The notes under the pieces are model-generated. The model did no database searches and was not told the DNA's origin. It saw only the letters and a list, made by a program, of their open reading frames with translations. Positions 42,621-45,600 of a stretch of 64,000 bases of DNA are shown here, piece after piece. A program made the translations under genes and the position numbers. Source of the stretch: Malacoraja senta (taxonomy: Eukaryota); contig CM075988.1 in assembly GCA_038087875.1 (NCBI GenBank), positions 992,001 through 1,056,000 on the forward strand. The letters run 5' to 3'. Position 1 is the stretch's first letter, and every line of letters begins with the position of its first letter.

Positions 42621-45600
42621 GCTCCCACGCACAAAACAGGCAGCATCTCTGGGGAGAAGGAATAGGTGACGTTTCATGCCGAGACCATTCTTCAGAGTCG
42701 TCTGAAGGGTCTCGACCCGAAACGCCACCCATTCCTTCTCTCCAGAGATGCTGCCTCTTCAGCTGAGTTACTCCAGCATTTTGTGTCTATCTTTGGTGTG
42801 ACAGTTGTGTCATTTCATCGGCTTCTTATATTGCGCGCCCAGGAGAGACGCTGTACATGCCGCTTGCATCTATTCAAACAAGTCCGCTCAAATTAAAATC
42901 CCACATCTTTGCGAGGGAGGGATGGAATGGATGTAATCACCAGCTAAAACAAAGGCTGTTAGGACAGGGAAATAATGCCACCGGTTAATTCACCATGTTC
43001 CAGAATGTATGAATGATTTATACATGTAATACATGATATACATTTATACATGGTTAATTAACTGGTGTATATCATGTATTACAAGTATAAATTGTATAAA
43101 TAGTAATGGCATAAATAATAGTAATGATAGTTAAAAATAATAGTAAAGTATAAATAATAACGACATGAGGAACAGTCACTACACACGGTTGATCAAGAAT
43201 GATGGGGATAGATTTTTCTATCATCGTAGCCGTCGCCACTACAGCTGGCAAGCAGGCTGGCATGCTGTTTACTACTGCTGGTTAAGCCATGGAATAATAG
43301 GGGGGTCTTTCCCCCCCCCCCCCCCATCTCCCCTAATGTTCTTGAGCCAGGACCCCGGTTGCAAACCCCTTTGATTCATTTACATAGAGTTGAAAGGGCT
43401 TTTTATAATTTGGCAATCCCAGAGCCAGAGCATTAACCATAGTTCAGATCTCTAAACGCCTGGTCTCTTTCTGCAGTCCATTCTATTCTGGAGGGTGACT
43501 GAACACAATGCTGCATCTAGTTCCCTGTAGTCATGGATCCATTGTATGCAGTAACCCACCAAGCCTAAGAAGTAGAGAATGTGCTTCTTTGTCGTCGGGA
43601 CCAGGACGTTCTCTACTTTTCCAAATTCTTTCTTTTCCAAGTCTCCTAACTTCCTGCAGCTGGAATCCCAGATACTGTACTCTAGGCAGGCAGAACTGTA
43701 ATGTTTCCAGGGATACTCTATGCCCACTTTCTGCCAAATGTTGCAGTCTTCTTTACAATTGGGACCTATTACAGAGGCTACCTAAAGATCATCAGCGTAC
43801 TGGATCAAAGTAGACCTCTCTGATAATTGGCATCCCTCAAGGTAATTTTTCACTGCTGCTGCATATACAGCCAGCTTTCAGTATACTGCTGGGGTAGCTA
43901 AGTCCAGGTGTATTGTTGATCTTTGTAGGTAAAAGCAAACAGGAACTGGCTGTCTTTGTGCAGAGGTATGGAGAAAAAGGCCGAACATAGGTCAACTACT
44001 GTAAAGCTGTTGGCTTTTGCTTGTATGGATGAGAATAATATTGGTGTCAGGTACTAGGGGAGCGATAGGGATCACTATTTTGTTAAGATCTCTAAGGCCC
44101 TGGACAAAGCGGCATATTAATTTTGTCTCCACACGTTCGGGATTGGCAGAATAGAAGTATTACACGGACTTTGCGTTTTCACCAATCCTCCTTGTTGTAA
44201 TAAAGACACGGCAGGCTGACGCCCTTTTTTAAAGTCACTTTATGTTCGGACTGAACGCACTCGACCTACATGGTTCTTATGTTTTGCCCATAGGTCAGAG
44301 GGTACTTTGACCAGAGCCATTGGTAACCTTGGCGGATCCTCAGTAGGTGGCTGTTGCTTTTCAAAAATATTACCCCATCCCTTTCTGACCCATGCGATCT
44401 TTCCTTCTGCATCATTAAAGAAGTTCATCTGGACCTCTCCTTCCATTGGCAACTTTAAAACATGAATTGAACGTTTGTCCTTCAGCCTCTTTATCATCCC
44501 TCCTATTTCCTTCGCTGCTGCTGGAGGTCTAGTAGCTATGGTCAAGTGTGACTCAGAGGTGTCTCCCATCTTAATCGATCCCTTTGGTTTTGAGAGAGGT
44601 GGACCATTATTCCTAATCCCAAAGAACAAATAAGGGGTCACTGTTAATTGTTTGAGTTTATTCAACCAGGGGGAGGCTTTTTCCTGGTACCCGGAATTAG
44701 GGAGGCACGTATATAATGCCATGCAATGCGTTTGCTTATGCTCTTGGCTGGTTTCGACAAGATACTGTAAATACTGGCCTGTTAGCTCCTACACTCTTTG
44801 CAGGACACAATGGAGTCGGCTGACCAATTGACTGTACGGATTGCTACTCAATTGCCAACAGTATAGGATGGGCATCTTTTGCCTTTGTTCTTCCTTATTC
44901 ATTAAATTTAGCAATTGATGGGTCCGAATTTGAGGTAGTTCCATAAACATACTGTATGCGGTGCAGTGTAAGACCACTCCCAGTTTGCACAGAGCCTGTC
45001 TTCCCAGTAACATGAGTGGGGCTGTTCCAGAGATTTTAAAAGTTTCAGTACGGGGCTGGACAACTTCCTTGTTGGGCGTTCCCTTGCTGTTGCTCCAGAG
45101 GGGCGGAAGAATTATTTTTTCCTTTAATCTTATGGTTAAAAAACAGCAGTACAACTATAACTAAAAACACTAGCACCTGCTTTTGTGTTATAGGCACAGG
45201 TCCTTTATTTCCCTCTTTTTGTCTATCACCTGCTTCTTTGGGGGTTGGTGTCTTTTTGCTATTTCTATCCATTTCTTTATCAGCGATAGCATAAAACTTC
45301 CCTTATACGGCCAATGTCTGTTTGACCAATCATATAGGTCGTTACTCAAGGTTTACCACATATTGGTCATCTCCGGTCTCTTTTATTACAACATCAGCTG
45401 GCGATCTCGGTGGGACAATGGGATCTCCTACCGTTACCCTTGAGTCTTATGATCTTTTTTATTACCTTGGCAGTCTTCTTACTTATCTGCATTTTTCCTA
45501 GACCACCTGTTTCTTTTCCTTAGGCCTTTTCCTACTAGTAGGATCAGAGATCGCCGATTGACTACTGTTGTTTGCTCATGTTCTTTTGTCAAGTCTGCAA

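What the first reader, a model, noticed from the sequence alone, without database searches (positions are those of the whole stretch)
44380..44800. 2H-phosphoesterase-like domain between protease and RT in the endogenous retrovirus
Seen (minus frame): ...KQT-HCM-ALY...SES-HLT-IAT...AKEIGGMIK, then VPSDLWAKHK at the RT start. Two Hx(T/S) motifs define 2H phosphoesterases, and HCM is one CpG transition (ACG to ATG) from HCT. Known (recalled): some fish retroviruses, such as the zebrafish ERV group, embed a 2H domain in pol, and corona- and rotavirus 2H enzymes degrade 2-5A to block RNase L. Inference: a cartilaginous-fish retrovirus lineage carried a possible immune-antagonist or RNA-end-processing enzyme.
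Basis: partly seen in the sequence, partly recalled or inferred. Interest (0 to 1): 0.7.

Follow-up and report, generated by a model that had tools for sequence, protein, structure and literature searches.

The report
CNPase-like domain in dead fish-type retrovirus
A broken retrovirus relic carries, between its protease and reverse transcriptase, a decayed copy of a domain related to the host enzyme CNPase; such domains were already reported in fish retroviruses, and their job appears untested.

Summary
In detail: HCM (44,728-44,720) and HLT (44,548-44,540) lie in a ~170-aa insert between protease and RT of a truncated, dead class I-type ERV. The motifs alone prove little and the window protein hits no family, but relatives settle it. 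The insert is homologous (66 bits; shuffles at most 8.9) to inserts at the same place in pol proteins from a sawshark, two salamanders and teleosts; 6 of 10 full-length relatives keep both HxT/S motifs. A profile of these inserts hits CNPase/RICH (17 of 19 PDB hits, best E 0.004), and the Atlas model of the sawshark insert matches CNPase at TM 0.75 against 0.45 for AKAP7/LigT. So it is a CNPase-type 2H domain, not the AKAP7-type that corona- and rotaviruses use against 2-5A. This copy is dead: first motif degenerate, in-frame stop, compensating frameshifts. CNPase/2H domains in fish retroviruses are in print (reviews citing Mazumder 2002, Basta 2009), and this scan found the same domain twice before in other genomes. 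My own AlphaFold models failed. Likeliest function: opening 2',3'-cyclic phosphates; untested.

The parts
44357..44866 (-). CNPase-type 2H phosphoesterase domain inserted between protease and RT; pseudogenised in this copy
   Evidence: Profile of relatives matches 44,866-44,453 at 61.6 bits, 66.1 for the excised domain; 40% identity to P0003 over PR-insert-RT start, E 4e-49; relatives map to CNPase. The 3' limit comes from the alignment to P0003.
44720..44728 (-). First catalytic motif, degenerate (HCM)
   Evidence: aligns with HCT in 6 of 10 full-domain relatives, HWS, ECT, ECT and YGT in the other 4, and with LHCTTKF of CNPase/RICH through the profile.
44540..44548 (-). Second catalytic motif (HLT), intact
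   Evidence: His in 9 of 10 relatives, HxT/S in 6 of 10; the profile aligns it with SRAHVTLG of CNPase.
44789..44791 (-). In-frame stop inside the domain
   Evidence: related contigs in all four runs mostly differ from the window here (table 3).
44572..44617 (-). Stretch read out of frame between two compensating indels
   Evidence: Indels at these two places in related contigs of all 4 runs laid (table 4); another frame scores 31 against the matching P0003 stretch, the motif-bearing frame 14.
44890..45135 (-). Retroviral protease remnant; C-terminal half recognisable, no intact D-T/S-G-A motif
   Evidence: tblastn of P0003, P0005, P0006; no D[TS]G[AS] in any of the three minus frames, an SGAT remnant at 45,099 (weak score, assignment by eye).
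43150..44315 (-). RT and connection remnant, split over all three frames with stops; element ends here
   Evidence: RVT_1 E 1.8e-5 and RT_RNaseH_2 E 0.018; YxDD at 43,799; no RNase H or integrase hit anywhere in the window; tblastn extent.
45140..45600 (-). Probable short gag remnant (inferred from position only)
   Evidence: Covered by related contigs in all four runs but no Pfam hit in any of 3 frames.

Best explanation
The insert is a CNPase-type 2H phosphodiesterase domain, related to and probably captured from a vertebrate CNP/RICH gene by an ancestor of class I (epsilon-like) retroviruses of fishes and amphibians. Shown: position in pol, homology, CNPase as nearest family, and that this copy is dead. 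Inferred: in the living virus it was made as part of the Pol polyprotein, so it was packaged next to genomic RNA, tRNA primer and RT, and its two histidines opened 2',3'-cyclic phosphates to 2'-phosphates on RNA ends or 2',3'-cyclic nucleotides left by host endoribonucleases. That would clean damaged primer or genome ends, or remove cyclic-phosphate products of antiviral RNA cleavage. It is an accessory, not a core, function.
For: Same insert at the same PR-RT junction in relatives from sawshark, Pleurodeles, Lissotriton, Larimichthys and Corythoichthys. Both HxT/S motifs kept in 6 of 10 full-domain relatives, including P0003 and P0016, whose inserts are 24% and RTs 36% identical. Profile A7 (9 rows, window included) against PDB: 17 of 19 hits are CNPase or goldfish RICH, best E 0.004, both motifs in register; no AKAP7, NS2, VP3 or LigT among them. 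Atlas model of P0003 109-283: CNPase TM 0.75 over 164 residues, fungal tRNA-ligase CPD 0.61, AKAP7/LigT 0.45; feature hits are tRNA_lig_CPD and 2H-SAK clusters. 2H enzymes opening 2',3'-cyclic phosphates is the standard role (PMC9503650, passages). Motifs are intact in a teleost-derived element (P0016), and OAS and RNase L were not found in three teleost genomes (PMC1845163, passage).
Against: No activity was measured. No single sequence hits Pfam CNPase or a PDB CNPase, and a 6-row profile gave 0 CNPase among 4 hits; only 1 of the 17 CNPase/RICH hits is under E 0.01. Both AlphaFold models failed (pLDDT 39 and 35), so the fold rests on one Atlas model (mean pLDDT 0.66). 4 of 10 relatives lack a motif residue, one of them (P0015) in an otherwise open 1,343-aa pol; P0017/P0018 have the domain largely deleted and P0005 lacks it. 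Catalysis is therefore dispensable in some lineages. Direction of capture (host to virus) was not tested with a tree.
Confidence: 0.58

Rival explanations
1. The domain degrades 2-5A (or another nucleotide messenger) and blocks OAS-RNase L, reaching the role of coronavirus NS2 and rotavirus VP3 from a CNPase rather than an AKAP7 scaffold.
For: Elephant shark has OAS and RNase L, three teleosts lack them (PMC1845163). Both motifs are intact in 4 of 4 shark- and salamander-derived relatives but in only 1 of 5 of the group related to the Larimichthys element, as relaxed selection would predict.
Against: Known viral 2-5A enzymes are AKAP7-like (bioRxiv 10.1101/2023.05.12.540623) and this domain is not. 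The pipefish element P0016 keeps both motifs. The eroded group is one loosely supported clade (85/96; P0004 has no RT and is placed by eye), 4 of its 5 hosts are unnamed, the three salamander rows are close kin, and salamander OAS status was not checked. AKAP7-type enzymes did not cleave 2',3'-cGAMP (PMC8406329).
Confidence: 0.15
2. The domain works mainly without catalysis, as an RNA- or nucleotide-binding module or as a decoy against host CNP, which restricts virus assembly.
For: Host CNP binds HIV-1 Gag matrix and inhibits particle formation (table in PMC7471995); CNP catalysis was 'somewhat dispensable' against SARS-CoV-2 (PMC10766180). Several relatives keep the domain with altered motifs.
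Against: Motif 1 columns are conserved at 0.7-0.9 and the second His at 0.9, against a mean of 0.53 across the insert. A Pol-embedded domain is made in small amounts relative to Gag (general knowledge). The viral domain has no P-loop domain or prenylation tail.
Confidence: 0.2
3. The insert is a neutral spacer and the likeness to CNPase is chance.
For: Weak E-values, no Pfam hit, failed AlphaFold models.
Against: A sequence profile and a language-model structure both pick CNPase first, with both motifs in register; published reports name the same domain.
Confidence: 0.05

Closest known systems
CNPase/2H domain of epsilon-like fish retroviruses and ERVs (Basta et al. 2009 as cited in PMC4977317; walleye dermal sarcoma virus, Mazumder et al. 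2002 as cited in PMC9503650; originals not held, not read)
   Same: Class I-type retrovirus of aquatic vertebrates with a CNPase/2H domain.
   Different: The reviews name ray-finned fish only; here the nearest relative is from a sawshark and others are from salamanders. PMC4977317 calls it an additional ORF; here it is in frame within pol. This copy is a pseudogene.
Vertebrate CNPase catalytic domain and goldfish RICH (PF05881; PDB 2i3e, 2xmi, 1woj, 2ilx)
   Same: HCT first motif, H-phi-T/S second motif, aligned strands between them; TM 0.75 for the relative's model.
   Different: Histidine spacing 60-62 against 79 in human CNP (H251/H330); no N-terminal P-loop domain or prenylation tail; embedded in a viral polyprotein.
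AKAP7-type viral 2',5'-phosphodiesterases (MHV NS2, MERS NS4b, rotavirus VP3-CTD)
   Same: 2H superfamily, two HxT/S motifs, host-related gene in an RNA virus.
   Different: Different 2H branch: TM 0.45 and no profile hit; 2-5A activity not shown for the retroviral domain.

Membership tests
2H phosphoesterase superfamily | Two H-phi-T/S-phi motifs | tested here: inconclusive
   Window copy has one (HLTI) and one degenerate (HCMA); both present in 6 of 10 full-domain relatives.
2H phosphoesterase superfamily | 2H fold | tested here: inconclusive
   Met for relative P0003 by the Atlas model (all 10 structural rows listed are 2H-family or unnamed); my AlphaFold models of the window domain and of P0003 were unusable.
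CNPase/RICH clade | Nearest homologs by sequence profile and structure are CNPase/RICH | tested here: met
   17 of 19 PDB hits, best E 0.004; TM 0.75, the one row meeting the Atlas bar for a name.
CNPase/RICH clade | Pfam PF05881 at its curated cut-off | tested here: not met
   No PF05881 hit for the window protein or any relative scanned.
CNPase/RICH clade | Hydrolysis of 2',3'-cyclic nucleotides to 2'-nucleotides | not testable with these tools
   Needs an enzyme assay.
AKAP7-type viral 2',5'-PDE | AKAP7-like sequence or fold as nearest relative | tested here: not met
   The AKAP7/LigT row scored TM 0.45 against 0.75 for CNPase in the same search.
AKAP7-type viral 2',5'-PDE | Cleaves 2-5A | not testable with these tools
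   Needs an enzyme assay.
Class I (gamma/epsilon-like) retrovirus | Pol nearest to class I retroviruses | tested here: inconclusive
   A profile of the relatives' pol ranks MLV-type RT structures first (E 1e-184), above foamy (1e-87) and lentiviral RT; no tree with named epsilonretroviruses or with the window RT was built.
Intact provirus | LTRs, open gag-pol-env | tested here: not met
   Stops and frameshifts throughout, no protease catalytic motif, no RNase H or integrase; the 43,101-45,650 stretch has no second copy in the window.

The most novel reading that the evidence does not exclude
Retroviruses of aquatic vertebrates captured host CNPase, independently of the AKAP7 captures by corona- and rotaviruses, and package it in Pol as an enzymatic counter to the OAS-RNase L arm (acting on the cyclic-phosphate products of RNA cleavage or on 2-5A itself); it stays catalytic in hosts that keep this pathway and erodes in a teleost lineage that lost it.
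Probability: 0.15. Interest if true: 0.7.

Novelty: new member of a known kind. Interest (0 to 1): 0.3.

Why it matters
The domain's existence is known, so this copy adds little. What remains open is function: a host-type nucleotide phosphodiesterase carried inside retroviral Pol, across shark, salamander and teleost elements, with no assay found in my searches. Naturally intact relatives make the substrate question directly testable. The spread to shark and salamander elements was not found in the papers I could search, but this scan has noted a shark case before.

Tried and rejected
Single-sequence searches: Pfam and PDB with the window ORF gave nothing; word-indexed protein searches with P0002 and P0001 gave 0 of 173 and 0 of 777 candidates; Atlas with P0002 gave only low-recognition, unrelated hits. 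PDB phmmer with the P0003 and P0016 domains: 0 hits; 6-row profile: 4 hits, none 2H. AlphaFold of the window domain (pLDDT 39.0) and the P0003 domain (34.7) from 12-row alignments failed; fold searches on them were meaningless (best Z 2.7; best E 5.1). IMG/VR: no relative; the alignment query was not accepted. Phage records: none. No genome is held, so copy number and LTR dating could not be done. No RNA holder listed. Summed contig depth differs along the element but was not used. Rfam: 0 matches in 40,000-50,000. The 32-bp-period repeats at 41,660-41,766 and 45,674-45,984 were considered as LTRs and rejected: they share only a 44-bp match nearby, a further copy lies inverted at about 49,140-49,450, and depth there is over ten times that of the ERV. 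The RT tree of 11 relatives has 1 of 8 inner branches strongly supported and long branches for P0016 and P0005, so it cannot order gain and loss. Mazumder 2002, Basta 2009 and Wilson 2012 are not held; their content is known to me only through citing papers. No supplements were read.

Full report
Observation. HCM is at 44,728-44,720 and HLT at 44,548-44,540, 60 residues apart; VPSDLW starts at 44,305. Only HLT is a true HxT/S. In 20,000 shuffles 52% had one such motif and 6% a pair 50-110 residues apart, so the motifs alone carry little weight. The window protein hit nothing in Pfam or PDB sequences and nothing credible in the ESM Atlas.

Context. The segment lies in a retroviral remnant of about 2.5 kb (43,150 to about 45,600, minus strand) among LINE-, DIRS- and SINE-like repeats. 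Upstream is a protease remnant without an intact D-T/S-G-A motif; downstream is an RT split over three frames (RVT_1 E 1.8e-5; YxDD at 43,799); no RNase H or integrase was found in the window. The domain itself has an in-frame stop at 44,791-44,789 and two compensating indels near 44,617 and 44,572: related contigs in all four runs laid differ there, and another frame matches the relative better over that stretch (31 against 14). The copy is dead. The family is multi-copy: 1,348-1,580 contig records were laid per run in four runs from four coded organisms and four studies (4 of the 24 runs listed).

Relatives. A search of 1.84 billion representatives with the window protein (stop read as X) gave 5 hits; the best is a Pristiophorus japonicus (sawshark) protein, 40% identical, E 4e-49. 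Cluster members and a profile search brought the total to 16 proteins, with named hosts Pleurodeles, Lissotriton, Larimichthys, Corythoichthys and Scomber. Ten hold the whole insert at the same PR-RT junction. The six left out of the motif count are P0005 (no insert), P0007, P0009, P0010 (end early) and P0017, P0018 (insert largely deleted). Both HxT/S motifs are present in 6 of 10; the first His in 7 of 10, the second in 9 of 10; the third position of motif 1 is Thr or Ser in 10 of 10. Inserts diverge much faster than RT (for example 22-30% against 36-66% from P0003). A profile of 8 relatives, window excluded, scores the window domain at 66.1 bits against at most 8.9 for 2,000 shuffles.

Family. 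Two earlier notes of this scan pointed to CNPase; I tested that. A 9-row profile of the inserts (window included) gave 19 PDB hits at E up to 10, of which 17 are CNPase or goldfish RICH (best E 0.004) with both motifs in register; the other two are Prp2 at E about 1. The Atlas's own model of the sawshark insert matches a CNPase cluster at TM 0.75 over 164 residues, fungal tRNA-ligase CPD at 0.61 and AKAP7/LigT at 0.45. Against this: a 6-row profile missed CNPase, no member reached Pfam CNPase (one hit tRNA_lig_CPD at E 0.021), and both of my AlphaFold models were unusable. I put the CNPase-type assignment at about 0.9. A profile of the relatives' whole pol ranks MLV-type RT first, in line with a class I (epsilon-like) element; no tree with named epsilonretroviruses was made.

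Mechanism. Inferred, not shown: as part of Pol the domain would be packaged with genomic RNA and the tRNA primer and open 2',3'-cyclic phosphates to 2'-phosphates, the usual role of such enzymes (PMC9503650, passages). The 2-5A reading is weaker: viral 2-5A enzymes trace to AKAP7 (bioRxiv 10.1101/2023.05.12.540623, passages; no mention of retroviruses or CNP there), and those tested did not cleave cGAMP (PMC8406329, passages). OAS and RNase L are present in elephant shark and were not found in three teleosts or Xenopus (PMC1845163, passage), yet a pipefish element keeps both motifs. In favour of a link to that pathway, motifs are intact in 4 of 4 shark and salamander rows and 1 of 5 rows of the group around the Larimichthys element; but these are kin, most hosts are unnamed and the tree is weak. 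A non-catalytic role is possible because host CNP restricts HIV-1 assembly through Gag matrix (table in PMC7471995) and acts partly without catalysis against SARS-CoV-2 (PMC10766180, passages).

Prior knowledge. [quoted passage not shown] PMC4977317 states that epsilon-like ERVs of ray-finned fish sometimes encode CNPase, citing Basta 2009. Neither original is held. The shark ERV paper PMC4422223 has no occurrence of 'phosphodiesterase' (passages). Searches for a functional test or a shark or amphibian report found none; subscription journals are mostly not covered. PMC8535693 and PMC2852836 (passages) added little beyond the loss of OAS in some teleosts. This scan has the same finding in two other genomes, one called a shark.

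Verdict. Real feature, correctly spotted, better named CNPase-type than 2-5A antagonist; a dead new member of a known kind with an open functional question. Interest 0.3.

Noticed in passing
window 45,632-46,212; 41,545-41,930; 48,800-49,450: A very high-copy repeat with internal 16/32-bp tandem units sits directly upstream of the ERV remnant, with related copies nearby in both orientations; no Rfam match; type not determined.
   Followed up: partly
window 36,105-38,879 (-): Stop-free 924-aa LINE ORF2 with endonuclease and RT (Pfam): a young CR1/L2-like copy.
   Followed up: partly
window 14,444-15,614 (-) and 28,011-31,116 (+): Two DIRS-like retroelement remnants (gag-like, RT and RNase H-like frames; family named from recall).
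   Followed up: no
window 7,914-8,570 (-): Tc1-like transposase fragment, 218 aa (named from recall).
   Followed up: no
window 59,721-60,685 (+): Tandem array read as repeats of 'SYHFKQGARPPNSSAV' in one frame; probably a minisatellite.
   Followed up: no
window 2,505-2,704: Assembly gap of 200 N.
   Followed up: no
P0012, P0015, P0004: Three related elements share Ala at the third position of motif 2, and P0015 has an open 1,343-aa pol with both motifs altered: loss of catalysis in a lineage rather than decay after insertion is possible.
   Followed up: partly
P0017, P0018: Two Scomber elements share an internal deletion that removes the second half of the domain while keeping RT open.
   Followed up: no
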